62,357 bases of DNA from Candidatus Saccharimonadia bacterium (GTDB lineage: Bacteria > Patescibacteriota > Saccharimonadia > CAILAD01 > JADZBC01): contig JAYRIB010000062.1 in assembly GCA_041907025.1 (NCBI GenBank), positions 1 to 62,357 on the forward strand, written 5' to 3'. The translations under genes were made by a program, and so were the position numbers. The notes below the pieces were generated by a model. It had not been told where the DNA came from. It ran no database searches and was given only the letters and a program-made list of their open reading frames with translations. Below, one piece after another: positions 14,484 to 27,511 of this stretch. Positions within the stretch are counted from its first letter, which is position 1, and each line of letters opens with the position of its first letter.

Positions 14484-14560
14484 GTACCCGTAGCTCAGTT
14501 GGATAGAGCGTCGGCTTGCGGAGCCGAAGGCCGCAGGTTCAAGTCCCGCCGGGTACACCA
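14484..14560 (+). tRNA. tRNA-Arg (anticodon GCG as read from the loop TTGCGGA)
   Basis: Acceptor GTACCCG/CGGGTAC, D-arm GCTC-AGTTGGATA-GAGC, anticodon stem TCGGC/GCCGA, T-loop TTCAAGT, encoded CCA. The T-stem has one A-C mismatch. Confidence 0.8.
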
Positions 14561-14656
14561 TTGACTTATTCGAATATTTATGCTATTATAATCAGGTTCG
14601 CTATTTGGCGGAAGCAAGTTTCTATTTACATCCAAATCGACCAGGAGGTCATTCCA

Positions 14657-14986
14657 TTGAAGCGTTTCGCTGCAATGCTCGTCATGATGTGGGCGTTCCT
14701 GCTGGCAGTCCCTGCTTCGGCACAGGCTGGCCCAGCCGACCGTACCCCGCCTGGGTGTGCATCGCCCGACGATCACGTTGTGGTCGTGTGGAGTGAACTG
14801 AGTTGCCGCACCTTCAAGGTGATGCCGTATGTCGGCCCCACGTTCTACGTGGTCAAGGCAGGCGATACCCTCTGGGGTATCGCGACCCGGTTCTCAGGAG
14901 GCGGCAAGAACTGGAGAGACCTCTGCACCGACTACCGAGATGACCCGCGTCACCTCCCCATCGATTCGAAGGTGTACTTCTGCTAG
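14657..14986 (+). CDS. Small secreted LysM-domain protein, GC3-rich
   Basis: TTG start 8 nt after AGGAGG. Signal peptide MKRFAAMLVMMWAFLLAVPASAQA. LysM core YVVKAGDTLWGIATRF. The promoter TTGACT-17-TATTAT starts right after the tRNA-Arg CCA. Confidence 0.7.
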   Translation: MKRFAAMLVMMWAFLLAVPASAQAGPADRTPPGCASPDDHVVVVWSELSCRTFKVMPYVGPTFYVVKAGDTLWGIATRFSGGGKNWRDLCTDYRDDPRHLPIDSKVYFC

Positions 14987-14998
14987 GCGTTCACTCGC

Positions 14999-15038
14999 CC
15001 AGGCGGACAGAGAAGAGCAATCAACTCTGTCCGCCTGG
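14999..15038 (+). terminator. GC-rich hairpin after the LysM gene
   Basis: CCAGGCGGACAGAG-12 nt-CTCTGTCCGCCTGG. Confidence 0.55.
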
Positions 15039-15197
15039 CGGGCTCAACCCAAGTATTTAATGTGAATTGAATGTTTAGGTCGAGACTAAGTTAGTAAATC
15101 ACTCCGTAAGCTATGGCATTGACTTACTAGCACTTTTATACTATTGTATACTTATTCTGTGCATCCGTGAAGGATAATCGCCTACCGAGAGGTACCC

Positions 15198-15602
15198 ATG
15201 CAGATCAGCATGCATTTCAGCATCCTGGACGAATACACCGACGTCGATTCGATGCTCGCAGCCATCGACAAGATGAAGGTGGGTGACGTGTACCACATCA
15301 CATTCCACCGAGACCCCGACGACATCGAACGAGAGGAGCTTGACGCCGTGGCGTTCTGGCGCCTCTGCGGCGACCGGACAAACGGTGCGGTCATGCCGCT
15401 CGAGCTCATCTACGAGGCGCAGCGGCACAACCTCAACTTCGTGGTGAACCGCGTGGGCACCCACGGCTGGTCGGGCTGCTACTCCTACAAAGTCAAGGTC
15501 CGGGCCGTCACCGCCTTCCTTCGGGCTGGTCTTCATGGCCTGATCCGGCAAGGACGGATCGCCTCCATCGAGAAGTTGGAAGCCGTGACCGCGGCCGCCT
15601 GA
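15198..15602 (+). CDS. Hypothetical 134-aa protein, GC3-rich
   Basis: GAGAGG RBS 5 nt upstream and an upstream TTGACT-17-TATTGT promoter. The strong G/C third-position bias is on this strand only. No family recognised. Confidence 0.6.
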   Translation: MQISMHFSILDEYTDVDSMLAAIDKMKVGDVYHITFHRDPDDIEREELDAVAFWRLCGDRTNGAVMPLELIYEAQRHNLNFVVNRVGTHGWSGCYSYKVKVRAVTAFLRAGLHGLIRQGRIASIEKLEAVTAAA

Positions 15603-15609
15603 GCACCAA

Positions 15610-15671
15610 GGTTGCCAGACCTCAAAACTGGCACTACCCAAGTTCATAACGAAAGTTGTGAGTTTAGGTGG
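15610..15671 (+). repeat. Two-hairpin repeat, copy 1
   Basis: GGTTGCCAGACCTCAAAACTGGCACTACCCAAGTTCATAAC-GAAA-GTTGTGAGTTTAGGTGG. It starts 8 nt after the stop codon of the 15198..15602 ORF. Confidence 0.85.
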
Positions 15672-15756
15672 TTGAGCTACTACAACTGTTGCATTTGTGC
15701 AAAATTGGAATATACTCCTAAATACCTTCCATCCTTCCTTAGAAAGGCGATAGCAC

Positions 15757-16377
15757 ATGGGGGAGAACCTCAAAGCAAGCGGACCGCAATTCGAGACTTT
15801 CCTGGGCAACTTCATCTATACCGCCCGCTGGGTATCTGGGTGTATTGTAGGAGCTCCCCTGGTGCTGGCCTACTACGCAGCCGACCGTGGCCTACGGACC
15901 GCTCGCCTCGTTTTGTCAGTCCTGATTCTGGCCTGCCTGCTGGTGCCAACTGCGATTGGTGTGCACCTCGGCATCCAGTGGGCGCGGCAAGACACGATGC
16001 TGCGAGAAGCGTGGCAGCCCACGCTAGCCACTCTTGACGACATCGAACCGGAGCGGCCAGGAGATGCATACTCTCTGTGGTATAGCTACAGGTTGCCAAA
16101 TTCGGAAAAGGATTACTACCTGTCGCAACCGCTCAAACAAAGCGCGCACAAAGGAGACCAGATCACCATCTGGGTGTCGGCAACTAGTCCAGATGACATC
16201 TACCTCGAAGATCCCTCGCCGATGTGGCCGAACAGCAGTCCGGAGACGCCGATTGTAAACGGAGTTATGGGCTTCTCACTTGGCCTGTTGGCCCTAGGTT
16301 GGGCAACTTGGTCCTACCTGCAGGCCAAGTTAGCTCGTAGAGCAAATCGAAGGTTGGCTGCCGAAAGGACGGAGTAG
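15757..16377 (+). CDS. Hypothetical membrane protein with TM helices at both ends (possibly DUF3592-like)
   Basis: 206 aa, GC3-rich. N-terminal helices (CIVGAPLVLAYY, LVLSVLILACLLVPTAIGV), a soluble middle region, and a C-terminal helix (VMGFSLGLLALGWATWSYL). Own promoter TTGCAT-16-TATACT. Confidence 0.6.
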   Translation: MGENLKASGPQFETFLGNFIYTARWVSGCIVGAPLVLAYYAADRGLRTARLVLSVLILACLLVPTAIGVHLGIQWARQDTMLREAWQPTLATLDDIEPERPGDAYSLWYSYRLPNSEKDYYLSQPLKQSAHKGDQITIWVSATSPDDIYLEDPSPMWPNSSPETPIVNGVMGFSLGLLALGWATWSYLQAKLARRANRRLAAERTE

Positions 16378-16382
16378 CCAAA

Positions 16383-16445
16383 GGTTGCCAGACCTCAAAA
16401 CTGGCACTACCCAAGTTCATAATCTTTAATTGTGAGTTTAGGTGG
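16383..16445 (+). repeat. Two-hairpin repeat, copy 2
   Basis: The first 40 nt and last 16 nt are identical to copy 1. The loop-closing pair changes from C-G to T-A, and the loop from GAAA to CTTTA. It starts 6 nt after the stop of the 15757..16377 ORF. Confidence 0.85.
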
Positions 16446-16552
16446 CAGCTCATAGGTCATTGTTGTTACGGTTGATTATCATAAGGTAATTGTGCTCTAA
16501 TAGCCTAGATCGAATTCGGTCAAACTGTCCCCTAGATGGAGAAGTACCTAGC

Positions 16553-17137
16553 ATGAGAGCACTTTTGTCTGTGTATGACAAGGCGGGCATCGTTGAGCTG
16601 GCTCAACAGCTTCACGACCTCGGCGTTGACCTCGTTTCGAGCGGGGGTACGGCTGACGTCATCGAAGCAGCCGGGATTCCCGTAACGCGGGTCGCCGACC
16701 TGACTGGCTACCCGGCCATGTTGAGCCACCGCGTTGCCACGCTCCACCCGAAGATCCACGGTGGCCTGTTGGCCGACAGGGACAACCCCGAGCACCTGGC
16801 CGAGGTCGAGAGGTACGAGATCCCCTTGATCGACCTGCTGGTCGTCAACCTCTACCCCTTCACCTCGGAGCCGTCGATCAAGCAGATCGATGTGGGTGGA
16901 CCGGCCATGATCCGTGCAGGTGCCAAGAACTATGCCTTCGTCGGAGTGGTGACTGACCCCGCCGACTACGACGTGGTGGTGAGCGAGATCAAGTTGTTCG
17001 GCAACCTGATGCTCAGCAGCCAACAACGGCTCGAGCTGGCTCGGAAGGCATTCGCCCACACCGCCGAGTACGACACCGCCATCGCTGCCTGGTTCCAGGA
17101 CGTGACCATCGATTCCGACGTCGGAAGCAGCACTTAA
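16553..17137 (+). CDS. Stand-alone PurH N-terminal domain (MGS-like IMP cyclohydrolase domain) with no AICAR transformylase domain
   Basis: 194 aa. ALLSVYDKAGIVELAQQL..GVDLVSSGGTA....G.PVT.V...TG.P.ML..RV.TLHPKIHGGLLA...VVNLYPF matches the PurH IMPCH domain. The ORF ends just after the domain boundary (AEYDTAIAAWF). GC3-rich. Confidence 0.75.
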   Translation: MRALLSVYDKAGIVELAQQLHDLGVDLVSSGGTADVIEAAGIPVTRVADLTGYPAMLSHRVATLHPKIHGGLLADRDNPEHLAEVERYEIPLIDLLVVNLYPFTSEPSIKQIDVGGPAMIRAGAKNYAFVGVVTDPADYDVVVSEIKLFGNLMLSSQQRLELARKAFAHTAEYDTAIAAWFQDVTIDSDVGSST

Positions 17138-17325
17138 CCACATGTCCCTACGACCATGAACGGCGCAGGGGTGGGTCTAAGCAGGCCCACCCCACAGCCA
17201 CACTCCAAGGATCTTCGAAAGAGGGTCCTCTTTCGTTAGAAGAGAAAGTTCGTAAATCGCTCTGTAAGCTATACCAAGTATTCTTTATGCATAGAGCCCA
17301 ACGAACTCTCTGGTATACTGCATTC

Positions 17326-17796
17326 ATGAAGTTACTCGTAATTGGTCCGCAGCTTTCGGGCAAGACCACCCTGGTCAGGCACCTGCGCAAGCATACCAAT
17401 ATGAACGTTTCGGAAATTGACGAGGAAATCCTGGCTGCTAACGACGGATCCTGGCCGAGCGATAATACACATAAGGACAAAGTGCTCATACCTGCCATTT
17501 ACGAGCGTATAGCGAAGCTAGATGACATTGTGTTCTTCGCCAACTACTTTGCTCCGCTTTCCCAAGTGCAGATGTTCAGAGATGCTGGCTTTACTGTTGT
17601 ACTGCTTGAGCCTCCTTACGAGGAGATGCTGCGTAGAAATAAACAGCGTATGGAGCAGGAGGGGTATGAAGACGCCACCCAATGGCTGATGGGACAACTA
17701 GAGAATCATAAAGACATTCTTGAAGCAGGATTAGTCGATAAAACATTGGACGCTACCCTTCCTACTGCCAAGATTGCTCAGTTATTGGAAGACTGA
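17326..17796 (+). CDS. P-loop NTPase / small kinase-like protein
   Basis: Walker A GPQLSGKTT. The start at 17326 lies 6 nt after TGGTATACT (extended -10), giving a leaderless arrangement. Native-like composition. Confidence 0.7.
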   Translation: MKLLVIGPQLSGKTTLVRHLRKHTNMNVSEIDEEILAANDGSWPSDNTHKDKVLIPAIYERIAKLDDIVFFANYFAPLSQVQMFRDAGFTVVLLEPPYEEMLRRNKQRMEQEGYEDATQWLMGQLENHKDILEAGLVDKTLDATLPTAKIAQLLED

Positions 17797-17936
17797 AGCA
17801 CGCTATCGAAAATTATGGCGTCACAAAGATAGTTCTGGCTTCGTCGAACAGACCAAGCATAAGCACTTCCTGCAGACTCCGTGTGGAGTTATTTTGCAAA
17901 CTTCCCGCTTTAATTGCCCGAGAACGTGTAGAGATA

Positions 17937-17965
17937 TTGACTTGCTCTATATATTATAGTACAAT
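17937..17965 (+). promoter_or_regulatory. Sigma70-like promoter of the dikinase operon
   Basis: TTGACT-17 nt-TACAAT in an AT-rich spacer. It predicts a leader of about 150 nt. Confidence 0.55.
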
Positions 17966-18055
17966 ATGCGCCTATTAACTTTGTATTAATTGCAGGAGTA
18001 CAAACACTCCTTTGACAACTGCATAGTTCAAAAAGTGTGCTGGCATAAGGTATGC

Positions 18056-18099
18056 GAATCAGCGAATAGTCTTTCGGCCGGAAGATTGTTCGCTGATTC
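18056..18099 (+). promoter_or_regulatory. 44-nt perfect palindrome (about 20-bp hairpin or operator) abutting the RBS
   Basis: GAATCAGCGAATAGTCTTTCGG|CCGGAAGATTGTTCGCTGATTC. Every position pairs (three are G-T). It ends 12 nt before AGGAGG and 20 nt before the ATG at 18120. Confidence 0.6.
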
Positions 18100-18119
18100 G
18101 ACTACCCCTAGGAGGAACC

Positions 18120-20306
18120 ATGTCAGCACCGCGCCAAGTGGTATTCCTCTTCAACGAGGGAGGCCAGGCAACCAAAACTCCCGCGTTTCGCGGCGGCAAG
18201 GGTGCAGGTTTGGCGGACATGGCGGCCCTCGGGCTTCCGGTTCCTCCAGGCTTCACCATCGCTACTTCGGTGGCACGTGCATTCGCCGAGACAGATCAAC
18301 TGCCTCGGCGGCTCGAAGGTCAAATCCGACGAGCCATGCGCAGCATCGAAAGCGAGAGTGGCTTCACGTTCGGTGACCCCAGTAACCCACTGTTGGTATC
18401 GGTGCGCTCCGGCGCTCCGGTTTCCATGCCCGGGATGATGGACACCGTGCTGAACGTTGGCCTACAAGAAAGCATGCTTGAGTCGCTCGAGCGCGTCAGC
18501 GGACGAGAGTTCGCTCAGGACACATACGAGCGCTTCTTGCGTCAATTTGGATCCGCAGTCCTCGATCTCCCGACCGAAGACGATCAGCTTCTCATCAAGG
18601 AGTCGGCGAGCCTCGTGCCCGATGACCCCTACGAACAGTTGATTATGGCAATCCGAGCCGTTCTGCTCTCCTGGAACAGCGATCGCGCGTGCGCGTACCG
18701 CGACAACCAGGAGATCCCTCACTGGTGGGGGACAGCAGTTACCGTTCAGGCCATGGCCTTTGGTAACCGAGATGATCGGTCGGCAACCGGCGTGGTGTTT
18801 AGCCACGACGTCAACTCAGGCGCCGAGGGTCTCACTGGAGAATTCCTCGTTCGCGCCCAGGGTGAAGACATCGTGAGTGGGACAACCTCGCCACAGTCGA
18901 TTGCGTGCATGCAAGCCTGGCATCCGCAGCTCTTCCAAGAGCTTCAAGACCAGGTTCGTCTGCTCTCAGACCATCTCGACAGCATGGTCGATGTTGAGTT
19001 CACCGTTGATAGCGGCAAGCTCTTCATCCTCCAGGTACGACGTGCTACACGCACTCCACTCGCTGCGGCGACCTTCGCGGTTCGTCGTGTGTGGAGTAGG
19101 CGATGGACTCACGGCGAAGCTGTTGCAAGCCTGAGCAAGGCAGAGCTTTCCCAGCTCGATTCAAGCCAGGCCAAGCTGTCAGGAGACTCTTTGCGACTTG
19201 CCGCCTGCGGTGTTGCTGCTTCAAGCGGCTGCGCGGTAGGCGAAGTCGTCTATAGCTCCCAGCGGGCAGTAGAACTTGCCAAGACTGGTCGGCAGGTAGT
19301 TCTGGTTCGTCCAGATACATCACCCGACGACCTACCCGGCATGCTGGCTGCAGTTGCGGTCGTTACGGCTCGTGGCGGCATGAGCTGCCACGCAGCTGTA
19401 GTCTGCCGCGGTCTCAACCGACCGGCAGTCGTTGGCGCCAGCGGCCACCTTACCACTCTGGGCACAAAGCCCTCGGAAGGTGTGGTCGTTTCCGTCGACG
19501 GCGCTACGGGCAAAGTCTACTTCGGCGAGCAGCCGATCCTCGGAGGTATCAACTCCAAAGAGGCACGACTGATCAAAGAGTGGGTCAAGCAGCCGATGCC
19601 TCGCAAAATCGAGTTCAACACGCTCGATCAGCGAGTTTCGGCGAACGCCTATCTGGCCGCTTTCTACATGACCGAGGCCATGGCTTACCAGTCCCGCGGC
19701 AGCGAACTGGAGGCACAAGCACGGGAGCTTCATGAGTCGGTCGTAGCCACGATCGCCCCATACTTCGCCACTTACCTGGCCCTGGCCACTGGTGGCGAAG
19801 TCCGTCACTACAAAGGCAGCTTCCTCCATAAAGCTCCAAATGAGCTAGTAGTGGACTTCCATGCTACTGCAATGCTCAGCGCGAACAGCCGTGAGCGGGC
19901 GCAACTGGAGACAGCGGTCATCCTCGACGGCATTAGTGTTAAGCGACAAGCTCGGTTCACCGAACTCGTAGCGCGCACTTTTGCGATAGAGGACGAGTGG
20001 TCGAGCGCTTATGGCGGCCCGAGGTGGGCCAAGATCGCCGAGACACTGCACGACTACATTGGAGGAACTACACCGGCAGCCGTGTTCGTCGATGCGGTTT
20101 TCGACCTGCGCCACAATGGCGGGGTGCTCTTCAACAAGCACCCAATGTTCACCGAGAAGACTAATGAGCACGAGCTGCATCACATGCTCGAGCTCAAGAA
20201 GACCCGCACCATCCAGGAGTTGTGGCTAGAATTTGGCTGCGTTGACGTGGCTGACTTCTGGTGGAGCGGGTTGTACATCAAGGGCCACAAGGCAAAACTA
20301 TGGTGA
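18120..20306 (+). CDS. PPDK/PEP-synthase-family dikinase (ATP-grasp plus swivel phospho-His domain) with an unrecognised C-terminal domain
   Basis: 728 aa. The N-terminus GGKGAGLADMAALGLPVPPGFTI matches the PPDK nucleotide-binding domain. The mobile-domain motif TARGGMSCHAAVVCRGL carries the catalytic His. The last ~230 aa (contains GGEVRHY, YGGPRWAKIAE and DLRHNGGVLFNKHP) do not resemble the PEP/pyruvate TIM barrel. Strong RBS AGGAGG. Confidence 0.8.
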   Translation: MSAPRQVVFLFNEGGQATKTPAFRGGKGAGLADMAALGLPVPPGFTIATSVARAFAETDQLPRRLEGQIRRAMRSIESESGFTFGDPSNPLLVSVRSGAPVSMPGMMDTVLNVGLQESMLESLERVSGREFAQDTYERFLRQFGSAVLDLPTEDDQLLIKESASLVPDDPYEQLIMAIRAVLLSWNSDRACAYRDNQEIPHWWGTAVTVQAMAFGNRDDRSATGVVFSHDVNSGAEGLTGEFLVRAQGEDIVSGTTSPQSIACMQAWHPQLFQELQDQVRLLSDHLDSMVDVEFTVDSGKLFILQVRRATRTPLAAATFAVRRVWSRRWTHGEAVASLSKAELSQLDSSQAKLSGDSLRLAACGVAASSGCAVGEVVYSSQRAVELAKTGRQVVLVRPDTSPDDLPGMLAAVAVVTARGGMSCHAAVVCRGLNRPAVVGASGHLTTLGTKPSEGVVVSVDGATGKVYFGEQPILGGINSKEARLIKEWVKQPMPRKIEFNTLDQRVSANAYLAAFYMTEAMAYQSRGSELEAQARELHESVVATIAPYFATYLALATGGEVRHYKGSFLHKAPNELVVDFHATAMLSANSRERAQLETAVILDGISVKRQARFTELVARTFAIEDEWSSAYGGPRWAKIAETLHDYIGGTTPAAVFVDAVFDLRHNGGVLFNKHPMFTEKTNEHELHHMLELKKTRTIQELWLEFGCVDVADFWWSGLYIKGHKAKLW

Positions 20307-20314
20307 AAGGAGCC

Positions 20315-20788
20315 ATGATGCCAAGAAGCCATCAGCCCCACGTTGGCGCAAGCGTCAGTGTGGGGGGATACAGTGTGTATGTCGGGGGCAGTCAGGACCT
20401 GGCAGGCGCACCGGACATCTTCCGCGAGATGGACATCATCATCCCTCTCAACGGCATAGTGTCAACCATCTTCGAGGGCACAGTGCTCCCCATCGTCCTT
20501 CAGGACTTCGGTGGAGTACCCCGCGACTGGGAGCAGATCCTGCGCGAGCAGGTCATCCCGGCTCTCGAAGCGGACAAAAGGGTTCTCGCCTACTGTACGG
20601 CCGGCCACGGTCGCACAGGTACGTTGCTGGCATCGCTCGTTGCGCTGCTGGAACCAGACATCGAGGACCCGATTGCCACGGTACGCGCGCGTCACTGCGA
20701 GCACGCTGTGGAAACCCGAGCACAGGCGGAGGCCATCTTCGCCCTGCTCGACCAACCCATCCCAGAGCCGTACACGAGGCTCTACTAG
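20315..20788 (+). CDS. Cys-based (CX5R) protein-tyrosine / dual-specificity-type phosphatase
   Basis: 157 aa. The P-loop CTAGHGRTG fits C-x5-R-[ST]. AAAGGAG RBS. The start lies 9 nt after the dikinase stop. Confidence 0.75.
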   Translation: MMPRSHQPHVGASVSVGGYSVYVGGSQDLAGAPDIFREMDIIIPLNGIVSTIFEGTVLPIVLQDFGGVPRDWEQILREQVIPALEADKRVLAYCTAGHGRTGTLLASLVALLEPDIEDPIATVRARHCEHAVETRAQAEAIFALLDQPIPEPYTRLY

Positions 20789-20804
20789 GCCGAAAGGGGC
20801 CACC

Positions 20805-21167
20805 ATGAGGCAGCAAGACAAGCAGAAGTGGTACATGGGGGGAACGGAGGGCACCGGGGAGTACCTGGTGATCGCCCGAGCTCCCTACCGCGGCAGGATC
20901 GGCGTACGCCTCCTGCCGGGCGGGATCGTGCGCATCCGCGTCGAGCCCGTCAACACTGCCGCAGCGCAGCGGCTGGCTGAGCACTTCCCCGTCGGGGAGT
21001 GGAAGCAGCCCGACCTCGGTCAGCTGCGGTTCTCGCGGGTGCTCAGCGCCAGCGAGGCCATCCCGGTGATCGAGGCGGCCATCACGGCGCTCAACACCAG
21101 GGGCCTGGAGCCCAACTCCAAGGCCCGTACCTGGCGCCGCAAGCTCCGCTCGCACGCGGGCGGCTGA
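20805..21167 (+). CDS. Hypothetical 120-aa protein, third gene of the dikinase operon
   Basis: ATG 5 nt after GAAAGGGG and 17 nt after the phosphatase stop. GC3-rich. No motif recognised. Confidence 0.55.
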   Translation: MRQQDKQKWYMGGTEGTGEYLVIARAPYRGRIGVRLLPGGIVRIRVEPVNTAAAQRLAEHFPVGEWKQPDLGQLRFSRVLSASEAIPVIEAAITALNTRGLEPNSKARTWRRKLRSHAGG

Positions 21168-21222
21168 GACCAGAACGCATCCGGGTGCGCATAGATAGTG
21201 GCTGGGCCCGGAATCCCAGTCA

Positions 21223-21251
21223 TTGACATTCAGCACGTTAAGTGCTAAAGT
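21223..21251 (+). promoter_or_regulatory. Sigma70-like promoter of an ORF-free GC-rich unit
   Basis: TTGACA-17 nt-TAAAGT. A second possible promoter, TTGGCG-18-TAATAC, lies at 21407-21436. Confidence 0.45.
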
Positions 21252-21257
21252 GATGCT

Positions 21258-21832
21258 CTCAGCCAATCAAAGGAGATGCTGTGAGTTAAAGAGAAGCCAA
21301 AAAGAAGCTGTAGTAGAGGTTTTGGTTGTGTGGCTCATCGAGCCCCGGGACCCCTTTGCCGGTACGCAGGGACAGTCTACACTTGAAAAGCTAAAGTAAA
21401 ACCATGTTGGCGTGAGGTTTGTTTTTAAGATAATACTCATGCTAACAGTGGCTGCCATGCGCCGAAGGGTTGATTGTAACTTCGGTTACATTTGCCCAAG
21501 CGTGGTCTGGAGTCAGTTCCCTGTCCGGATTGACTTCAGTATGTAGGCCTTGTGGCGCCCAGCAGGGTGTCTCGGCAGAATGCGGCCTGGCAACCGCAGC
21601 GTAGACAGAACGCAGGCAAGCTACCTTGGAGTGGGTAGTGTAAAGTGCCATCACGGAGCAGGGCAGCAGCCCTAGGCGACGGCGAGGTTTCGGGTTACTG
21701 TATTAGTGTACCGAGACCAGCTATCGCGACAATCGGTCCGGAGCTCCTACCTAATCTAAAAAAATCTTTTGCACTCGTGCAGGAGTGGCCCCTCCCGGAC
21801 GCTTTGGCGTTTAGGAGGGGCTCTTTCTTTTC
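21258..21832 (+). ncRNA. Candidate structured non-coding transcript(s) of about 0.4-0.58 kb, class unknown
   Basis: Bounded by a promoter and a terminator. No ORF has a start context. Many local hairpins (e.g. GTAAC-TTCG-GTTAC). GC-rich relative to its flanks. Confidence 0.35.
21788..21832 (+). terminator. Intrinsic terminator
   Basis: GCCCCTCC-18 nt-GGAGGGGC followed by TCTTTCTTTTC. Confidence 0.65.
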
Positions 21833-21842
21833 CCCGAAAGAT

Positions 21843-21905
21843 GGTTGTCAGACCCTAAAACTGGTACTACCCAAGATCATAACTTAGCGTTGTGAGTTTA
21901 GGTGG
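21843..21905 (+). repeat. Two-hairpin repeat, copy 3 (diverged)
   Basis: GGTTGTCAGACCCTAAAACTGGTACTACCCAAGATCATAAC-TTAGC-GTTGTGAGTTTAGGTGG. There are 5 substitutions in the first 40 nt; the two that fall in hairpin 1 both convert Watson-Crick pairs to G-U pairs. Confidence 0.8.
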
Positions 21906-21920
21906 TAAGCAGGGTAAGGG

Positions 21921-22676
21921 TTATGTCGGCGCAGATGCCGCCCAAATTACGTCATACATCGCACCCATCATCTCGTGATGCTCAGCTGAAGTAACGAGAA
22001 GGGCATACCCACTTGGGAGAGACGATATATACAGTACATTTGAATCATACATAAACACGGTCGTCCTAAATTTGCCTCCAAAATCCGCTGGCATCATGCG
22101 TATTTCAGAACGCTGGTAGTAATTCTGGATAATACCGGGGTCGATCTTTTCTGCCCACAAATTGCGCGTACGAACCCCCAAACGATTGCGCGTAGAGACA
22201 TAATGCGTGACAAATTCTTCGCCAAACTGCCAAAAGAAGTTTTGCTTGGGAACGATGGAATCAATACGGCGCCCATGACAATATACTGCCTCCATAATAA
22301 CACTGCGAACAGCAGCAATTCCTTCGTAAAAAGAAACTTGGGGTTTATGATCCCCATCAGGCTGCTTGGCTACGATTGAGTTAAGGGCATCGACCTCCTC
22401 CCGCAATGCGTCAAGCTCTGACTGCCTTTCGGCTACGATGGTCTGCAAGCGCGACACAGGCTCCACTCTCCACATGGACGGCTCGGCAAGTCCTGTTTTG
22501 CTGAGCAGTCCGCGGCGTTCCAGTGCGGAAATAGCGTAGTAAACCGTAGGTCGACTTCGACCCGTTGTCTTAATGACGTCGCTCGCAGTCCTTGCGCCTG
22601 CAAACATTGCCAGATAGACGTCAACTTCGGATTCTTGAAGCCCCAGTTTAAGGAGCGTGTTGCGTGGTTGTTCCAT
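21921..22676 (-). CDS. TrmB-family transcriptional regulator
   Basis: 251 aa. The N-terminal wHTH LGLQESEVDVYLAMFAGARTASDVIKTTGRSRPTVYYAISALERRGLL is typical of the TrmB family. Native-like composition. Confidence 0.75.
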   Translation of the reverse strand: MEQPRNTLLKLGLQESEVDVYLAMFAGARTASDVIKTTGRSRPTVYYAISALERRGLLSKTGLAEPSMWRVEPVSRLQTIVAERQSELDALREEVDALNSIVAKQPDGDHKPQVSFYEGIAAVRSVIMEAVYCHGRRIDSIVPKQNFFWQFGEEFVTHYVSTRNRLGVRTRNLWAEKIDPGIIQNYYQRSEIRMMPADFGGKFRTTVFMYDSNVLYISSLPSGYALLVTSAEHHEMMGAMYDVIWAASAPT

Positions 22677-22761
22677 ATCGTCTAACCATTATTATACACT
22701 ATTAACTTTAGCCCCACGCGGGACTACGATGAGGCTGTTCCTCGACAGAAAGGCAAGCACA

Positions 22762-23376
22762 ATGACCACACCAAACCTTATGCAGCGCTGGGTTGACCAG
22801 TTTCCAGAAGTAAGTCTGGATCACTGTCTATACGTGTTCCGGCTCGTAGAGAAACACTACAACGAGACACACAGGCACTACCACACGCAGGGCCACATTG
22901 TAGACATGTTGGAGAAGATGGATGTGCACTTCCCAGGAGCGCCGCGATCGGTAGTACTGGCCATCTTCCTGCACGACGTGATCTACCAGCCTGGCTCGCC
23001 AAACAACGAGCTCAACAGCGCCCGGTTCGCCAAGCGGCATCTGAGCCGGCTTGGGCTGAGCCGCGAGGAGGTGAGGGCAGTTGCTCGCGCGATAATGGCC
23101 ACACGCAAGCACGTCGCCCGCAATCGTGTGGAAGCAATCGTGTGCGACCTGGACCTGCTGTCGCTGGCATGTGAACCAGCGTGGTATCGCAGGAATACCC
23201 GTTTGCTCAGGCAGGAGTTCTGCGGATTCACAGATGCTCAGTGGAACTTCGGCAGAAGCAGGTTCATCAACTCCTATTTGGGGCGTAAGTACATTTACGC
23301 AAACCCCAAGCTACGGCGAGCACATGAGGCCAATGCGAGGAGGAACTTGCAGGCAGAGCCGAGCTATAGGGCATAA
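22762..23376 (+). CDS. HD-domain metal-dependent phosphohydrolase (COG4339-like)
   Basis: HYHTQGH ... FLHDVIY forms the H..HD metal-binding signature. Start at 22762 (GAAAGG RBS) or 22729. GC-rich. Divergent from the TrmB gene. Confidence 0.7.
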   Translation: MTTPNLMQRWVDQFPEVSLDHCLYVFRLVEKHYNETHRHYHTQGHIVDMLEKMDVHFPGAPRSVVLAIFLHDVIYQPGSPNNELNSARFAKRHLSRLGLSREEVRAVARAIMATRKHVARNRVEAIVCDLDLLSLACEPAWYRRNTRLLRQEFCGFTDAQWNFGRSRFINSYLGRKYIYANPKLRRAHEANARRNLQAEPSYRA

Positions 23377-23541
23377 AGGTAGGGGAGGAAACTTAACAGG
23401 GGAATACCGTCCGGTGAGGCTTCGGCTTCGCCGGGCTTCGCTTAGCGCAAATAGTATTGACCGCTTAGGCACATTATGTTATTATCTAGTTCTTGTTTGG
23501 GGAAACTGTAGTACCCGACCAGAACCCATAAGGGGATGTAA

Positions 23542-24117
23542 GTGAAGATGTTCATCGAGTTCATGCTCACGGTCACGAGCAAGGTCACGCACAAGAACGC
23601 GATCGTCGCGACCGTGAAGATCACCGACGCCGAGGGCGAGCCCATCGTGGCCGCCGAGACCATGCGGCGCCGCGCCGACACGATCAAGGACAAGCTCAAC
23701 GCCGCCCTCGAGAAGCTGACTGGGATCATCGACCCCGACACCAACTTCTCGTTGGGCTGCGACAAGGCCACGGGCGGCAATGGCCACCTGCAGATCCCGG
23801 AGCTGAGCATCCCGCTGCCCGACGGTAACATCATGTTGCTCCGCCTCGACATCGACACCATGGGCTACACGCCGGCGGACCAGGACATCAACGAGCTCGT
23901 GCTCGAGACCCTCGAGGAGGTGCTTGAGGAGATCGGCGACGCCTGGCTCGAAGATGACGTGCCGCTCGACGAGATGATGGCGTGGCACACCAAGGCGACC
24001 GTGTCGATCCACGAGCAGCTGGGCCTTCCGGCTCTCGCGCTCGTCAGCGCCGCCGCCGGTGGTGCCGACAACTCCGAGAGCCAGATCCAGCACGGCCGCG
24101 ACGCGGCCATCGGCTGA
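23542..24117 (+). CDS. Hypothetical 191-aa acidic protein, extremely GC3-rich
   Basis: The first 20 codons all end in G or C. Upstream promoter TTGACC-17-TATTAT. GTG start at 23542 or ATG at 23548. Followed by the hairpin GGCCGGGGGAG...CTCCCCCGGCC. No family recognised. Confidence 0.6.
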   Translation: MKMFIEFMLTVTSKVTHKNAIVATVKITDAEGEPIVAAETMRRRADTIKDKLNAALEKLTGIIDPDTNFSLGCDKATGGNGHLQIPELSIPLPDGNIMLLRLDIDTMGYTPADQDINELVLETLEEVLEEIGDAWLEDDVPLDEMMAWHTKATVSIHEQLGLPALALVSAAAGGADNSESQIQHGRDAAIG

Positions 24118-24234
24118 CCCTCTCGCCATCCATGGCAAACGGGCCGGGGGAGCGCATCTCCCCCGGCCACGAGCCACCAACCCACAAGGGCTTTTCCTCA
24201 GGAAGAGTCCTTCTTTCGTTCTAGTAATGACTAC

Positions 24235-25431
24235 TTAGCGTTCGAAGGTAGTTGCTGTCGAGGTGAATCCAGTTACTTCTGTGGCAGTCTTGCCCAAGAA
24301 TACTTGAGCCTTGAGCTTCTCGCCAGATTGGACCTGTACAAGTATAACGCCTTGAACTTGCGCGTTTGAAGCGCCAGCCTGCTGCTGTGGTTGGCCTGGT
24401 GAAGCTGGTTGCTGAGTAAGCTCGTATTTAATCACGCCACTTGAGGCACTAATCGTAGCGGGGTCGGGTGCATTACCCTTCACCTGGAAGGCACGAGGCT
24501 GACCATCACCTGGGTCGCCAATTGAAATGACAATTATGCCTGGGTCGTAAGCGTAGGGGATAATGGCTAGGTGCCCGCTCCAGTAGCCACGGCCGCTACT
24601 GTCGCCAACCTGGGTATTCTTAGGCCCTGCGTAGCCATTGGTACCCTGTTTGAACCAGTTACCAATCAGTTTGCCTGGCTGGTCGTAATCAATCTTGCCC
24701 GCGCGCGGCTCCACTGTGCGGGCGTTCTTGGCGAGCATTGGCATCTTCATGGCGGCGTCAAAATAACTAAAGAAGTCATCGGTATGGACCTTCCACGGCT
24801 CACCCTCATACATCTTTGGGCTAATGAAGCCGGAAAGAGTAAGCTCTTGATCGTAAATTGCCGTATCGAGTGACTGTTCGCCAATCCAGCCGATAATCTG
24901 CCCTGATTTGATAGCGATCTTGCCGTTATAGCCCTTGGTTGAAGCATCAGGAGCTTTGGAGGTAATGCTGTCGTCCAGCTTGGTAATCAGGTCGAAGTAG
25001 CTGGTGGTGCGACAGGTGTGCTGCATCTCAAGTCGATACTCAGGTGGACGTTGCTCGCCGTTGCTGACATTCACGCCTCGTACCTGAATGTTGCTAATGT
25101 AGCCATCCGCCATGGCATAGACTGGGTATTTGTCGCGTGGGCCAGCTTTCGGGTAGAAGTACAGGTGGTCTATTGGGGTTACGTGAGCACCGGCCGTGAG
25201 CCCCATAGGGGCGACTGATGACACGTCGGCCATATCCATTGGTTGGTGTGTCATCGCTACTTTATTTTCCCCCTTGCAGCCACTCAACGCCTTAGATAGA
25301 GGATTGTTATTGCTACTCTTGCCACCCTTGCCAGCGAGAGCAAAGAAGACCATCCCACCTATGAGCGCAAGGATGATGATTGGGAGGATTATATGCGAGA
25401 TACCTGTAGGGGTGCGTTTGGATGATTTCAT
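24235..25431 (-). CDS. Membrane-anchored extracytoplasmic hypothetical protein
   Basis: Leaderless ATG at 25431, 7 nt after TATAAT (the track starts at TTG 25437). N-terminal TM helix ILPIIILALIGGMVFFAL. Native composition. No family recognised. Confidence 0.65.
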   Translation of the reverse strand: MKSSKRTPTGISHIILPIIILALIGGMVFFALAGKGGKSSNNNPLSKALSGCKGENKVAMTHQPMDMADVSSVAPMGLTAGAHVTPIDHLYFYPKAGPRDKYPVYAMADGYISNIQVRGVNVSNGEQRPPEYRLEMQHTCRTTSYFDLITKLDDSITSKAPDASTKGYNGKIAIKSGQIIGWIGEQSLDTAIYDQELTLSGFISPKMYEGEPWKVHTDDFFSYFDAAMKMPMLAKNARTVEPRAGKIDYDQPGKLIGNWFKQGTNGYAGPKNTQVGDSSGRGYWSGHLAIIPYAYDPGIIVISIGDPGDGQPRAFQVKGNAPDPATISASSGVIKYELTQQPASPGQPQQQAGASNAQVQGVILVQVQSGEKLKAQVFLGKTATEVTGFTSTATTFER

Positions 25432-25571
25432 AGTCAAGATTATAGTCTAAGCATAAGTACTTAGGCTAGTGTTTTATACATGTAAGATTCTTGCGCTTGT
25501 CTGACGATCTAGAGCGCTCTATAGTAAGAATCAGATCGCAACGCACCCCTACACGAAAGTGATGTGACCTA

Positions 25572-25955
25572 ATGTCCGACCTACATCCGACCACTAGGCA
25601 TGAAGTCTGGAGTGGCACCCCCAAGGGATCGCTTGATTACCGCCTGACAGATCTCTACGCCGGCAGGATTCGTGCCTACATACCGCCTGGCTTCCAGGGT
25701 CTGCTGGTTCCCAAGAAGGAGGGTCGACGAATCCTTCGTATTCCGTTTGGTGCACAAGTACCAAACGAGGGACTTGATGGGCTACGAGATCTCGAGACGG
25801 ACAAGAAGGATGAGCTCCTCGACCTGTTTCGAGAGCTAGGGCACACACTGCCCATCTTTCGGTCTGACCCAGAGAGGTTGCAGGCCCAAAACGACCTTCT
25901 TGCCGTCCATAGAGTCGGCTTCACTCAAACCGAAGGTGTTTTCGTACTCGTGTGA
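25572..25955 (+). CDS. Hypothetical 127-aa protein
   Basis: ORF downstream of a TTGTCT-17-TATAGT promoter and followed by a strong terminator. The RBS is weak. Confidence 0.45.
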   Translation: MSDLHPTTRHEVWSGTPKGSLDYRLTDLYAGRIRAYIPPGFQGLLVPKKEGRRILRIPFGAQVPNEGLDGLRDLETDKKDELLDLFRELGHTLPIFRSDPERLQAQNDLLAVHRVGFTQTEGVFVLV

Positions 25956-25981
25956 CCTCCTTCGGCGCGACAGCACCAACA

Positions 25982-26029
25982 CCCACCGACCAGAGCCCAT
26001 CGGCCTCTGGTCGGTGGGTTTCTCGTTTT
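25982..26029 (+). terminator. Intrinsic terminator
   Basis: CCCACCGACCAGAG-9 nt-CTCTGGTCGGTGGG followed by TTTCTCGTTTT. Confidence 0.65.
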
Positions 26030-26065: not shown

Positions 26066-26533
26066 ATGAAGAAGTACGCCCCACTCATCGGCATAGGCAT
26101 AGCGGCTCTGGCGATAATCGGCATTGTCCTATTCGCACCCAAGGCCAATGACTATAAATCAGAGTCCATGAAGGTTCCAGTCAGTACGTCGAGCAATAGC
26201 AATGCGACAACAACCACACAAACAGCGCCCGGGGCCTACATAGATTACTCGGCGGACGTAATCGCCAACACCAACGGAACCAAGATCCTCTTCTTCCACG
26301 CGCCGTGGTGCCCACAGTGCAAAGCGCTCGAGGCTAGCATCAAGGCTGGCCCGATCCCGACAGACACCACCATTATCAAAGTGGACTACGACTCAAACCA
26401 AGCCCTCAAACAAAAGTATGGCGTTACCACGCAAACCACACTTGTGCTGGTGGATGACAATGGCAATCTCGTCAAGAAGTACGTAGCCTATAGCACCCCA
26501 TCGCTGAGCGCTGTAATTTCCAACCTACTCTAG
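26066..26533 (+). CDS. Membrane-anchored thioredoxin-fold protein
   Basis: WCPQC active site and an N-terminal TM helix. The ATG lies 6 nt after TGGTATAAT (leaderless). Confidence 0.8.
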   Translation: MKKYAPLIGIGIAALAIIGIVLFAPKANDYKSESMKVPVSTSSNSNATTTTQTAPGAYIDYSADVIANTNGTKILFFHAPWCPQCKALEASIKAGPIPTDTTIIKVDYDSNQALKQKYGVTTQTTLVLVDDNGNLVKKYVAYSTPSLSAVISNLL

Positions 26534-27252
26534 TGCCGCTCATCATTATCGCATTCTTAGCCGGTGTGCTCACTGCCCTGGCGCCGTGTGTCTTGCCCAT
26601 CATACCAGTCGTCATTGGTGGGTCGGTCGGCGGCAAGCCAGATCGCCGCAAGCCCTTCATAGTCTGTGCGTCTCTGCTCGTGTCAATCGTAGCCTTTACC
26701 TTGTTGCTCAAGGGTAGTACCTTACTCATCTCGGTGCCAGATGTGTTTTGGCGCACGCTCTCGGGCGTAATGATTGCATTCTTTGGCCTAACCCTCTTGT
26801 TCCCGCTACTGTGGGACAAGCTCACCGCTTGGACGGGGATTTTTAATAAGTCACAACGAGCTCTTGGTGGTGCCTACAAGAAGGGTGGGGTTGGTGGCGC
26901 GGTTATGATCGGCGCCATGCTTGGCCCGGTTTTCTCGAGTTGTAGCCCGGTCTATCTCTTTATTCTCTCTACTGTATTGCCGCGCAACTTCCTCGAGGGG
27001 ATCATCTATATCGTCGCATACGCGCTTGGACTGTGCGTGGTACTTCTGCTGGTTGGTATCTTTGGTCAAAAGGTAATCGCCAAGTTTGCCTGGGCCACCA
27101 ACCCGTATGGTTGGTTCAAGCGGGGAACAGGTGTGTTACTGGTATTAGCGGGGCTTGCCATTGTAAGTGGTGCCGACAGAAGCTTGCAGCAATACGTGGT
27201 GGATCGTGGCATCCTCGACATAACCAAGGTCGAGCAGCAGCTCCTTAAGTAG
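26533..27252 (+). CDS. ccdA: Cytochrome c biogenesis / thiol-disulfide transporter CcdA (DsbD family)
   Basis: 239 aa and polytopic. The N-terminal LAGVLTALAPCVLPIIP motif has the conserved Cys. The GTG start overlaps the thioredoxin stop by 1 nt. Confidence 0.85.
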   Translation: MPLIIIAFLAGVLTALAPCVLPIIPVVIGGSVGGKPDRRKPFIVCASLLVSIVAFTLLLKGSTLLISVPDVFWRTLSGVMIAFFGLTLLFPLLWDKLTAWTGIFNKSQRALGGAYKKGGVGGAVMIGAMLGPVFSSCSPVYLFILSTVLPRNFLEGIIYIVAYALGLCVVLLLVGIFGQKVIAKFAWATNPYGWFKRGTGVLLVLAGLAIVSGADRSLQQYVVDRGILDITKVEQQLLK

Positions 27253-27283
27253 AGGCGATAAGGGAATATACCTAGAATATAAT

Positions 27284-27304
27284 AAGGAGCCCTTAGGGCT
27301 CCTT
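27284..27304 (+). terminator. Hairpin after ccdA
   Basis: AAGGAGCCC-TTA-GGGCTCCTT. Confidence 0.6.
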
Positions 27305-27511
27305 ATGTAGGCTGCCTACTTTTATGTAGGCTCTACCTGTGTTTAGCCACCTCACTGGTGACAATCTTATTGTACACCCACCGCTACTAAACGCGTCAAG
27401 GGGGTTTTGGGGACTTTTTACGAACGCTTTACGAACTTATCAACAGTCTTGTACACAGGGGGATAACACTCCTTGTTTACACCAGGCTAAGCCGTGTGCT
27501 TTAATACCCTT

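What the first reader, a model, noticed from the sequence alone, without database searches (positions are those of the whole stretch)
14561..26029. tRNA-Arg-flanked 11.5-kb accessory island built from single-gene modules of promoter, GC-rich ORF and hairpin
From the tRNA-Arg CCA to the terminator at 26029, the region alternates between GC3-rich genes and a few native-composition genes.

The GC3-rich units are:
- a LysM secreted protein (14657)
- a 134-aa unknown (15198)
- a membrane protein (15757)
- a PurH N-domain (16553)
- the dikinase-phosphatase-unknown operon (18120-21167)
- an ORF-free unit (21258-21832)
- an HD phosphohydrolase (22762)
- a 191-aa acidic unknown (23542)
- a 127-aa unknown (25572)

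The native-composition genes are a P-loop protein (17326), a TrmB regulator (21921) and a membrane-anchored protein (24235). Almost every GC-rich gene has its own AT-rich sigma70-like promoter and its own hairpin or repeat at the 3' end.

The organisation therefore resembles a cassette array more than a prophage or ICE. No integrase, transposase, relaxase or phage structural gene is visible. I do not recognise this modular architecture as a described element type.
Basis: partly seen in the sequence, partly recalled or inferred. Interest (0 to 1): 0.7.

Follow-up and report, generated by a model that had tools for sequence, protein, structure and literature searches.

The report
Strain-variable gene-swap region in Saccharibacteria
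The stretch after tRNA-Arg is a real, strain-variable patch of a Saccharibacteria chromosome whose small self-contained genes are swapped between relatives, most likely by ordinary homologous recombination rather than a new mobile element; its most interesting cargo is an uncharacterised kinase-phosphatase module that is also found in phages.

Summary
tRNA-Arg(GCG) ends at 14560 and the listed genes, promoter-like sites and hairpins are present. GC3 in the island ranges from 0.50 to 0.94, against 0.60±0.04 in the flanks. No integrase, transposase, relaxase or phage structural gene was found, and the tRNA 3' end is not repeated anywhere.

The only close relatives available are three metagenome contig types. 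They carry different genes between tRNA-Arg and a conserved thioredoxin-CcdA-bestrophin-tRNA-Ser block. Breakpoints fall at the tRNA end, in promoters, at stop codons and in hairpins. Identity to one relative swings between 64% and 100% in 0.25-4.5 kb tracts, and one contig is a recombinant of two haplotypes.

The dikinase-phosphatase-120-aa operon, together with a conserved non-coding unit (about 17933-21832), sits at another chromosomal site in a related genome and is compositionally foreign there.

I read the region as a flexible genomic island of the "minimal mobile element" type, turned over by homologous recombination in a naturally transformable lineage. It is not a new element class, and it is not integron-like.

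The dikinase carries a confidently predicted all-alpha C-terminal domain. It has no Pfam family and no PDB fold match. It is homologous to phage family phrog_20946, which sits beside a phage dikinase, tyrosine phosphatases and DNA polymerase.

The parts
14484..14560 (+). tRNA-Arg(GCG). It forms the left edge of the variable region. Identity with relative L001 stops exactly at the CCA end.
14561..15090 (+). LysM unit: promoter-like TTGACT-17-TATTAT at 14561-14589, CDS at 14657-14986 (GC3 0.74), then a long hairpin followed by a diverged copy of the conserved hairpin (15047-15080). The unit is absent from L001 and L094.
15113..15672 (+). 134-aa unknown unit: promoter-like site at 15119-15147, CDS at 15198-15602 (GC3 0.84), 63-nt repeat D1 at 15610-15672. 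In L094 an unrelated 122-aa gene precedes the same conserved hairpin.
15673..17796 (+). Block shared with L094 at 88% identity. It holds the 206-aa membrane protein (15757-16377), D1 copy (16383-16445), the PurH N-domain-only gene (16553-17137, GC3 0.81), two hairpins (about 17168-17229) and the P-loop kinase-like gene (17326-17796). In L001 everything left of 17308 is replaced by 4.2 kb of other genes.
17933..21832 (+). Dikinase module. It comprises a promoter (17937-17965), a 5'-UTR inverted repeat (18049-18106), the 728-aa dikinase (18120-20306), the Cys-phosphatase (20318-20788) and the 120-aa protein (20805-21167). It also includes a conserved non-coding unit with its own promoter (21223-21251) and intrinsic terminator (about 21786-21832). 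The module is 100% identical in L001. It is 78% identical in L090/L103, where it sits at another chromosomal site and is compositionally foreign.
21843..21905 (+). Fourth D1 copy. It lies just outside the right end of the module shared with L090.
21921..22676 (-). TrmB-family regulator. Its allele is 87-92% identical to that of L001. Contig L003 carries the L001-type allele on a window-type left side.
22756..23376 (+). Phosphohydrolase (phrog_19425, 1e-28). Its 3' part (22808-23307) is 100% identical to L001. Identity ends at its stop codon.
23453..24223 (+). 191-aa acidic protein unit (GC3 0.94): promoter at 23457-23485, CDS at 23542-24117, terminator at 24186-24212. It is present in L094 at 80.6% identity between different neighbours and is absent from L001.
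24235..25437 (-). 400-aa membrane-anchored protein. It is absent from L001, which has Crp, DUF5670 and YggT genes there, and from L094, which has a 267-aa gene there.
25491..26029 (+). 127-aa unit: promoter at 25497-25525, CDS at 25572-25955, terminator hairpin at 25981-26019. It is 85-90% identical to L001. In L094 only the promoter region is shared and a different 138-aa gene follows.
26066..28431 (+). Right-hand frame conserved in all three relatives: thioredoxin, CcdA/DsbD, bestrophin-like protein and tRNA-Ser(CGA). It is itself mosaic, ranging from 64% to 99% identity to L001.

Best explanation
The interval from tRNA-Arg (14560) to about tRNA-Ser (28340) is a flexible, hypervariable chromosomal region. 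The genome is a Saccharibacteria-like Patescibacterium, and the region lies roughly 20-35 kb from dnaA.

The region is built of small, independently transcribed units, each with its own promoter and its own hairpin or terminator. These units have separate evolutionary histories.

The region is not a self-mobile element. Units are gained, lost and replaced when DNA from related strains is taken up. The DNA is then integrated by RecA-type homologous recombination, anchored in conserved neighbouring genes or in conserved intergenic promoter and hairpin sequences. Occasional short-homology joins move a unit to a new site. This is the 'minimal mobile element' or flexible-genomic-island mode of gene flux.

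The main cargo is a compositionally foreign expression module. It encodes a PPDK-like dikinase (ATP-grasp domain, swivelling His domain and a new all-alpha substrate domain), a Cys-phosphatase, a 120-aa protein and a roughly 580-nt non-coding RNA. The proteins are the cellular, fused version of a gene set that phages keep next to their DNA polymerase.

I infer that the dikinase phosphorylates, and the phosphatase dephosphorylates, a nucleotide-like or nucleic-acid substrate.

What is shown: variable content, mosaic identity, a recombinant haplotype, relocation of the module, and the absence of mobility genes and att repeats. What is inferred: transformation plus recombination as the mechanism, and the biochemical role of the cargo.
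For: **Organism**
- The window holds ValS, a Patescibacteria-type T4SS cluster and DnaA.
- Homologues of window proteins are named Saccharibacteria or Patescibacteria by their sources.

**Variable content**
- L001 consists of the tRNA-Arg end, then 4.2 kb of other genes, then window 17308-23373. After that come 1.7 kb of other genes and then window 25491-28567.
- L094 keeps 15628-17742, 23453-24223 and 25963-28369. It has other genes in between and lacks the dikinase, TrmB, HD and 400-aa genes.

**Breakpoints**
- They fall exactly at the tRNA CCA end, at the -10 of the P-loop promoter, at the HD stop codon and at the -35 of the 127-aa promoter.
- One falls between the two hairpins of repeat D1.

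**Mosaic identity and recombination**
- Window against L001 shows 100% identity over 17808-22057, next to tracts of 84%, 87-92%, 71%, 97-99% and 64-78%.
- L003 joins a window-type left side to an L001-type TrmB allele.
- Intergenic regions are often more conserved than the genes beside them, which would supply recombination anchors.

**Module relocation**
- BLAST-detectable DNA homology spans window 18011-21826. It recurs at 78% identity between a MacB transporter and rpsB in GCA_964496815.
- The upstream promoter near 17933 is also conserved in L090 and L103.
- In that genome the module's GC3 is .65/.76/.93 against neighbours at .38-.51.

**No mobility machinery**
- No integrase or transposase was found among the island's own genes or among 18 further ORFs checked in the rest of the window.
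- The tRNA 3' end is not repeated.

**Literature**
- Saccharibacteria are naturally transformable through comEC and integrate DNA by homologous recombination (PMC10633639).
- Minimal mobile elements are defined in PMC3787668.

**Cargo**
- The gene order dikinase N-part, C-domain, phosphatase, 120-aa protein is kept in about 14 distinct metagenome loci. The phosphatase lies beside the C-domain in about 40.
- The AlphaFold2 model of the C-domain has pLDDT 92.9 and no PDB fold match (best E 1.7).
- phrog_20946 hits all 18 members of the C-domain alignment.
- Three annotated phage genomes show the order PPDK, PTP, phrog_20946 protein, (second PTP), DNA polymerase.
Against: - Only three close haplotypes were available, all short metagenome contigs of 15 kb or less. 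I could not show that this interval turns over faster than the rest of the genome.
- Transformation and recombination were not observed here, and the organism's own com and rec genes lie outside the window.
- Relocation of the dikinase module to an unrelated site cannot be explained by flanking homology alone. The joining mechanism for that event is unknown.
- The 63-nt repeat is confined to the island and lies at two junctions, which leaves room for a site-specific process.
- Several cargo genes have phage-family relatives, so a decayed phage-derived insertion could have seeded the region.
Confidence: 0.68

Rival explanations
1. The region is an integron-like cassette array. The 63-nt hairpin repeats would be recombination sites, analogous to attC, and an unlinked recombinase would excise and insert promoter-ORF-hairpin cassettes.
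For: - There are four same-strand copies of a conserved hairpin, found only inside the island.
- The stem is kept while the loop varies, and it contains G-U pairs.
- Two junctions between genomes fall at copies of the repeat. L094 has an unrelated gene before the same hairpin, and the L090 module ends 17 nt before a copy.
Against: - No integrase was found among the ORFs checked in the window.
- I found no RYYYAAC or GTTRRRY cores when reading the repeat sequences.
- Most cassettes have promoter-like sites upstream.
- About 9 of 11 mapped junctions are not at a D1 copy.
- The repeat is absent from the alternative segments of L001 and L094, from L090 and from IMG/VR.
- The G-U pairing favours function as + strand RNA, that is, a terminator or insulator.
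Confidence: 0.07
2. The region is a decayed remnant of a phage or integrative element that once integrated at tRNA-Arg. It would since have lost its integrase, att repeat and structural genes and been overwritten by recombination.
For: - The region abuts the tRNA 3' end.
- The dikinase, phosphatase, C-domain, phosphohydrolase and P-loop proteins all have PHROG or phage relatives.
- Several units are compositionally foreign.
Against: - There is no att repeat.
- No integrase, structural, replication or lysis genes were found.
- The units have different histories and different partners in each relative.
- The fused dikinase is widespread in cellular genomes and nearly absent from IMG/VR.
- In L090 the module sits away from any tRNA.
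Confidence: 0.12
3. The region is an ordinary core chromosome segment. The compositional heterogeneity would reflect expression level or amino-acid bias, and the differences between contigs would reflect assembly chimeras of mixed strains.
For: - Mean GC3 is only marginally above the flanks.
- All comparators are short metagenome contigs, which can be chimeric.
- GC3 differs even within the one operon, at .66.74 and .91.
Against: - The same alternative arrangements appear in independent samples and assemblies: L001 from ENA and L002 from Logan, and L090 to L093.
- Breakpoints fall at gene boundaries rather than at random positions.
- The replaced segments are whole, different genes.
- The module is at a different locus in a 160-kb NCBI contig.
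Confidence: 0.08

Closest known systems
Minimal mobile elements and recombination-driven flexible genomic islands (Neisseria; Saunders and Snyder 2002, as cited in PMC3787668)
   Same: - Different gene sets sit between the same conserved flanks in close relatives.
- There are no mobility genes.
- Exchange is by transformation plus homologous recombination.
- Sequence identity is mosaic.
   Different: - This case is in a Patescibacterium with a reduced genome.
- The interval is bounded by tRNA genes.
- It holds about a dozen units that turn over individually rather than one cassette.
- One unit has also moved to an unrelated locus.
tRNA-adjacent additive genomic islands and tycheposon-type islands of marine bacteria (from my own knowledge, not tested here)
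   Same: - It is a tRNA-flanked hotspot.
- Small cargo modules of different origin accumulate there.
   Different: Those islands carry, or are fed by, elements with tyrosine recombinases and leave partial tRNA repeats. Neither feature is present here.
Integron cassette arrays and CALINs
   Same: There is a series of mostly co-oriented short ORFs, each followed by an imperfect hairpin.
   Different: - No IntI was found.
- The repeat has no attC core motifs.
- Most cassettes have promoter-like sites upstream.
- Most junctions are not at the hairpin.
Phage gene set PPDK, tyrosine phosphatase and phrog_20946 next to DNA polymerase (about 80-kb Vibrio siphophages, Stenotrophomonas DLP3, Rhodobacter RcZahn)
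   Same: The proteins are homologous: the dikinase N-part is 34-38% identical, the C-domain 25-30% identical, and both sets include a Cys-phosphatase.
   Different: - In the window the dikinase and the phrog_20946 domain are fused into one protein.
- A 120-aa partner and a non-coding unit are added.
- The setting is a cellular chromosome.
- The phage genes are uncharacterised and are described as metabolic 'PPDK' (PMC12038007).
Canonical pyruvate, phosphate dikinase
   Same: The ATP-grasp nucleotide domain and the phosphohistidine swivel domain (GGMSCHAAV) are present. The match to NF004531 is 430.8 bits.
   Different: The PEP/pyruvate-binding TIM-barrel domain is replaced by an unrelated all-alpha domain, so pyruvate is unlikely to be the substrate.

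Membership tests
Integron / CALIN cassette array | IntI tyrosine recombinase adjacent to the array (may be absent in CALINs) | tested here: not met
   No recombinase family was found among the island's genes or the other window ORFs scanned. Not every ORF of the 62 kb was scanned, and the rest of the genome is not available.
Integron / CALIN cassette array | attC sites with R''/L''...L'/R' boxes and RYYYAAC / GTTRRRY cores at each cassette end | tested here: not met
   I found neither core when reading the D1 repeat sequences. Only 4 of about 13 units are followed by D1. No attC-specific model such as HattCI was run.
Integron / CALIN cassette array | Cassettes mostly lack promoters | tested here: not met
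   Consensus-like sigma-70 sites lie upstream of most units: 19 against 5.3±2.2 expected. Their function was not tested.
Classical tRNA-integrated genomic island, prophage or ICE | Integrase next to the tRNA | tested here: not met
Classical tRNA-integrated genomic island, prophage or ICE | Direct repeat of the tRNA 3' end at the distal boundary | tested here: not met
   No copy within 3 mismatches of the 22-nt 3' end. The 14-nt matches with 2 mismatches lie inside unrelated genes.
Classical tRNA-integrated genomic island, prophage or ICE | Phage structural genes, or relaxase and T4SS genes, inside the element | tested here: not met
   None in 14.5-26 kb. The T4SS cluster at 31.5-46 kb lies outside the region and is of the chromosomal Patescibacteria type.
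Minimal mobile element / flexible genomic island | Different gene content between the same conserved flanks in close relatives | tested here: met
   Three arrangements lie between tRNA-Arg or the P-loop gene and the thioredoxin-CcdA block.
Minimal mobile element / flexible genomic island | No mobility genes of its own | tested here: met
Minimal mobile element / flexible genomic island | Signs of homologous recombination (mosaic identity, recombinant haplotypes) | tested here: met
   Tracts range from 64% to 100% identity. L003 is a recombinant of two haplotypes.
Minimal mobile element / flexible genomic island | The host is naturally transformable | not testable with these tools
   The com and rec genes are not in the window. 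Transformability has been shown for cultivated Saccharibacteria (PMC10633639).
Pyruvate, phosphate dikinase (for the 728-aa protein) | PEP/pyruvate-binding TIM-barrel C-terminal domain | tested here: not met
   Pfam finds only PPDK_N and PEP-utilizers. TIGR01828 scores 458.8 bits against a cut-off of 843. The C-domain model is all-alpha with no PDB match.

The most novel reading that the evidence does not exclude
The promoter-ORF-hairpin units could be true mobile cassettes. In this reading the conserved 45-nt hairpin, found only in this region, is a structure-specific recombination site. It would be used by a recombinase encoded elsewhere in the genome, or by the uptake and recombination machinery itself. 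That would give Patescibacteria an integron-like gene-capture platform at tRNA-Arg that needs no linked integrase.

Separately, and more likely, the dikinase-phosphatase-120-aa-ncRNA module could be a new nucleotide- or nucleic-acid-modifying system shared with phages.
Probability: 0.08. Interest if true: 0.85.

Novelty: new member of a known kind. Interest (0 to 1): 0.5.

Why it matters
- Patescibacteria have tiny genomes and are often described as highly syntenic. A documented locus where single genes are swapped between strains, with a recombinant haplotype caught in metagenomes, shows how these epibionts renew their accessory genes without dedicated mobile elements. It also fits their recently shown natural competence.
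- The region points to an uncharacterised enzyme system. The dikinase's substrate domain is predicted with high confidence, has no PDB fold match and no Pfam family, and has about 3,440 representative clusters.
- That domain is always partnered with a Cys-phosphatase, and phages keep the same set beside their DNA polymerase, where it has been annotated as metabolic 'PPDK'.
- Working out its substrate would correct that annotation and may reveal a new nucleotide or DNA modification pathway.

Tried and rejected
- **Genome-contig scan with the whole dikinase.** It was flooded by canonical PPDKs at about 40% identity.
- **Metagenome-contig scan with the P-loop protein.** It found nothing.
- **CcdA/DsbD relatives at about 70% identity.** Only the thioredoxin-CcdA pair is kept in those genomes, so they are too distant to test synteny.
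- **Rfam.** There were no hits at gathering threshold across the window and only chance-level hits in the ORF-free unit.
- **Covariance model of the ORF-free core.** It hit only the three sequences it was built from and none of 78 distant loci. Conservation beyond close relatives is therefore unproven.
- **PADLOC.** No defence-system match was found, apart from a weak P-loop hit.
- **PDB sequence searches.** None was found for the C-domain, the 120-aa protein or the HD protein.
- **The listing of cluster members for PurH-N hits.** It gave no usable taxonomy, so host-to-epibiont transfer of the GC-rich genes could not be tested.
- **IMG/VR.** The D1 hairpin has no match, and the fused C-domain has one weak locus.
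- **tRNA association of the dikinase module in other loci.** It is inconsistent.
- **Literature search for Saccharibacteria genomic islands.** The only hit was unrelated.
- **Rejected idea: the ORF-free unit encodes a small protein.**

Full report
**Context**

The 62-kb window comes from a Saccharibacteria-like Patescibacterium. It holds valS (8557-10953) and four T4SS pilin genes. It also holds a VirB4-like ATPase (31.5-46 kb) and dnaA (48769-50163, - strand). Sources name homologues of window proteins as Candidatus Saccharibacteria or Patescibacteria. The finding lies between tRNA-Arg(GCG) at 14484-14560 and tRNA-Ser(CGA) at 28340-28431.

**Checking the observation**

- The 'HD' protein has no Pfam hit but matches phage family phrog_19425 'phosphohydrolase' at 1e-28.
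- The phosphatase has only sub-threshold Pfam hits but carries a CX5R motif, and it weakly matches SsoPTP and DUSP23.

With corrected gene starts, GC3 runs from 0.50 to 0.94 inside the island. The flanks within 31.5 kb are 0.60±0.04 and 0.62±0.03, and the origin-proximal half of the window is 0.51±0.055. The alternation of GC3-rich and ordinary genes is therefore real, although the mean shift against the immediate flanks is modest.

Promoter-like sites number 19 against 5.3±2.2 expected. The left flank has 18 against 9.2±3.1.

A 63-nt repeat (D1) occurs at 15610, 16383 and 21843, with a diverged copy at 15047. All copies are on the + strand, and none occurs elsewhere in the window. D1 consists of a variable first hairpin and a conserved second hairpin whose G-U pairs favour the + strand RNA.

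No integrase, transposase, relaxase or phage structural gene was detected in the island or among the other window ORFs scanned. The tRNA 3' end is not repeated anywhere.

**Comparative evidence**

An exact-protein look-up of the dikinase returned eight contigs.

*L001 and L002.* These start inside tRNA-Arg at 100% identity and then carry 4.2 kb of different genes (Trp repressor, a 303-aa protein, HAD, a 155-aa protein, a Mur ligase). They rejoin the window at 17308-23373, diverge again for 1.7 kb (Crp, DUF5670, YggT), and rejoin at 25491-28567. The junctions fall at four places:
- the CCA end of the tRNA;
- the -10 of the P-loop promoter;
- the stop codon of the phosphohydrolase;
- the -35 of the 127-aa promoter.

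Identity along the shared parts is strongly mosaic:
- 100% over 17808-22057;
- 84% just to the left of that;
- 87-92% in trmB;
- 100% over 22808-23307, in the phosphohydrolase gene;
- 71-90%, then 97-99%, then 64-78% through the thioredoxin, CcdA and bestrophin-like genes.

*L094.* This contig was reached through an 88%-identical PurH-N protein and gives a third arrangement. It shares 15628-17742 (D1, TM206, D1, PurH-N, P-loop) at 88%. It also shares the 191-aa unit at 23453-24223 (80.6%) and the right-hand frame at 25963-28369 (81%). In between it has other genes, and it lacks the dikinase module, trmB, the phosphohydrolase and the 400-aa gene. An unrelated 122-aa gene with a different first hairpin precedes the same conserved D1 hairpin there.

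*L003.* This contig joins a window-type left side to the L001-type trmB allele, so it is a recombinant haplotype.

Intergenic sequences are often better conserved than the neighbouring genes.

Relatives at about 70% protein identity keep only the thioredoxin-CcdA pair, so they cannot test synteny.

**The dikinase module**

The nearest non-identical dikinases (73-76% identity) lie in contigs L090-L093 and L103. There the same three genes, with the same spacing and a following 0.7-kb ORF-free stretch, sit between a MacB transporter and rpsB-tsf-frr.

BLAST-detectable DNA homology spans window 18011-21826, and the promoter near 17933 is also conserved. In that genome the module's GC3 (.65/.76/.93) stands far above its neighbours (.38-.51). 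The module is thus a discrete, compositionally foreign expression unit that occupies different loci in related genomes.

Its ORF-free part has several features of a functional non-coding RNA:
- It has a conserved promoter (21223-21251) and a conserved intrinsic terminator (about 21786-21832).
- It has no conserved ORF and no codon periodicity.
- In a 143-nt core, 10 of 30 predicted pairs carry compensatory changes (0 of 500 shuffles reach this; slid controls give 2-3).

Only three sequences support this. Rfam has no match, and a covariance model found nothing in 78 more distant loci. I therefore call it a likely structured non-coding RNA of narrow known distribution.

**What the cargo is**

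The 728-aa protein has the PPDK ATP-grasp domain and the phosphohistidine swivel domain (motif GGMSCHAAV). It lacks the pyruvate-binding barrel. Instead it ends in a roughly 230-aa domain with these properties:
- It is conserved across hundreds of 700-800-aa proteins.
- About 3,440 representative clusters match it at E ≤ 1e-3, including stand-alone forms of about 250-350 aa.
- It has no Pfam family and no PDB sequence match.
- AlphaFold2 models it confidently as all-alpha (pLDDT 92.9). Foldseek finds no PDB neighbour (best E 1.7, TM 0.23).
- It matches four viral models at TM 0.66-0.71.
- phrog_20946 (function unknown) hits all 18 members of the C-domain alignment.

In Vibrio, Stenotrophomonas and Rhodobacter phages the phrog_20946 gene lies in a fixed set: 'pyruvate phosphate dikinase', small ORFs, a tyrosine phosphatase, phrog_20946, a second phosphatase-like gene, and DNA polymerase. 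The literature treats the phage dikinase as an uncharacterised metabolic gene (PMC12038007).

Across about 14 distinct metagenome loci the gene order dikinase N-part, C-domain, phosphatase, 120-aa protein is conserved. The phosphatase lies beside the C-domain in about 40 loci.

I infer a phosphoryl-transfer cycle on a non-pyruvate substrate. Given the phage setting next to the polymerase, and the kinase-like and phosphohydrolase neighbours here, the substrate is probably a nucleotide or nucleic acid. This is inference only.

**Mechanism of the region as a whole**

The data fit a flexible genomic island of the minimal-mobile-element type. Different cargo sits between conserved anchors, there are no mobility genes, and identity is mosaic with recombinant haplotypes (definition in PMC3787668). 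The phylum has been shown experimentally to take up DNA through ComEC and integrate it by homologous recombination (PMC10633639).

Breakpoints at promoters, terminators and stop codons are what selection for intact expression units would leave. Conserved intergenic stretches would provide the recombination anchors.

The rivals fare as follows:
- The integron-like reading fails on integrase, attC cores and promoterless cassettes. Most junctions are also not at D1. It is not fully excluded, because D1 is confined to the region and lies at two junctions.
- A decayed tRNA-integrated element is possible as the seed of the region. It lacks an att repeat and any backbone gene.

**Limits**

- Only three haplotypes, all on short contigs, were available.
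- I could not compare turnover here with the rest of the genome.
- The event that moved the module to another locus is unexplained.
- Taxonomic origins of the GC3-rich orphan genes could not be obtained.

**Verdict**

The claim of a new element class is not. This is a new member of a known kind of variable region, in a phylum where such loci are, to my knowledge, little documented. It carries an uncharacterised module shared with phages that deserves follow-up.

Noticed in passing
window 21223-21832; L090 13100-13700; L104 about 13262-13790: A conserved ORF-free unit has its own promoter and intrinsic terminator. It shows no codon periodicity, has compensatory changes in a 143-nt core, and has no Rfam match. 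It is likely a roughly 580-nt structured RNA that travels with the dikinase operon.
   Followed up: partly
window 19620-20306 (dikinase residues about 500-728): The all-alpha C-terminal domain has no Pfam family and no PDB fold match. About 3,440 representative clusters match it, and it is homologous to phage family phrog_20946.
   Followed up: yes
L183 (phage DLP3) 6771-7547; L186 (RcZahn) 6925-7695: The DLP3 gene annotated 'thymidylate synthase' matches the window's Cys-phosphatase (46% over 56 aa). Its RcZahn counterpart is annotated as a PTPc phosphatase. phrog_17568, labelled 'thymidylate synthase', also hits the phosphatase. These phage annotations look wrong.
   Followed up: partly
window 18049-18106; L104 about 9920-9985: A long inverted repeat lies directly upstream of the dikinase ribosome-binding site. 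It is conserved in sequence in L090 and L103. In L104 a hairpin of unrelated sequence occupies the same position. This may be a translational or attenuator control element.
   Followed up: no
window 17808-22057 compared with L001: About 4.25 kb is 100% identical between haplotypes that differ by 8-16% immediately on both sides. This suggests a very recent spread of the dikinase module across diverged backgrounds.
   Followed up: partly
window 27491-28300: The bestrophin-like gene is only 64-78% identical to its L001 counterpart, while the adjacent CcdA gene is 97-99% identical. Allelic replacement therefore extends beyond the island boundary given in the finding.
   Followed up: partly
window 16553-17137: The 194-aa PurH fragment (MGS domain plus the start of AICARFT) is not obviously a pseudogene. 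Proteins of 190-340 aa at 55-68% identity lie on long contigs, including one from a Saccharibacteria genome, and an 88% orthologue exists in L094.
   Followed up: partly
L001 and L002 ends; L094 end: Independent metagenome contigs start inside tRNA-Arg and stop at or just past tRNA-Ser(CGA). The assemblies therefore break at both tRNAs that bound the interval, as expected if strains diverge there.
   Followed up: no
window 31553-46000: This stretch holds four tandem T4SS pilin genes, PrgI-like and VirB4-like genes and a 1067-aa protein with a VanY-like end. It has lower GC (0.42-0.52) than the left half of the window.
   Followed up: no
L001 2753-2790; L094 1274-1310 and 3463-3487: A second short hairpin-like motif is shared between otherwise unrelated intergenic regions of the relatives' alternative segments (86-92% over 26-36 nt).
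   Followed up: no
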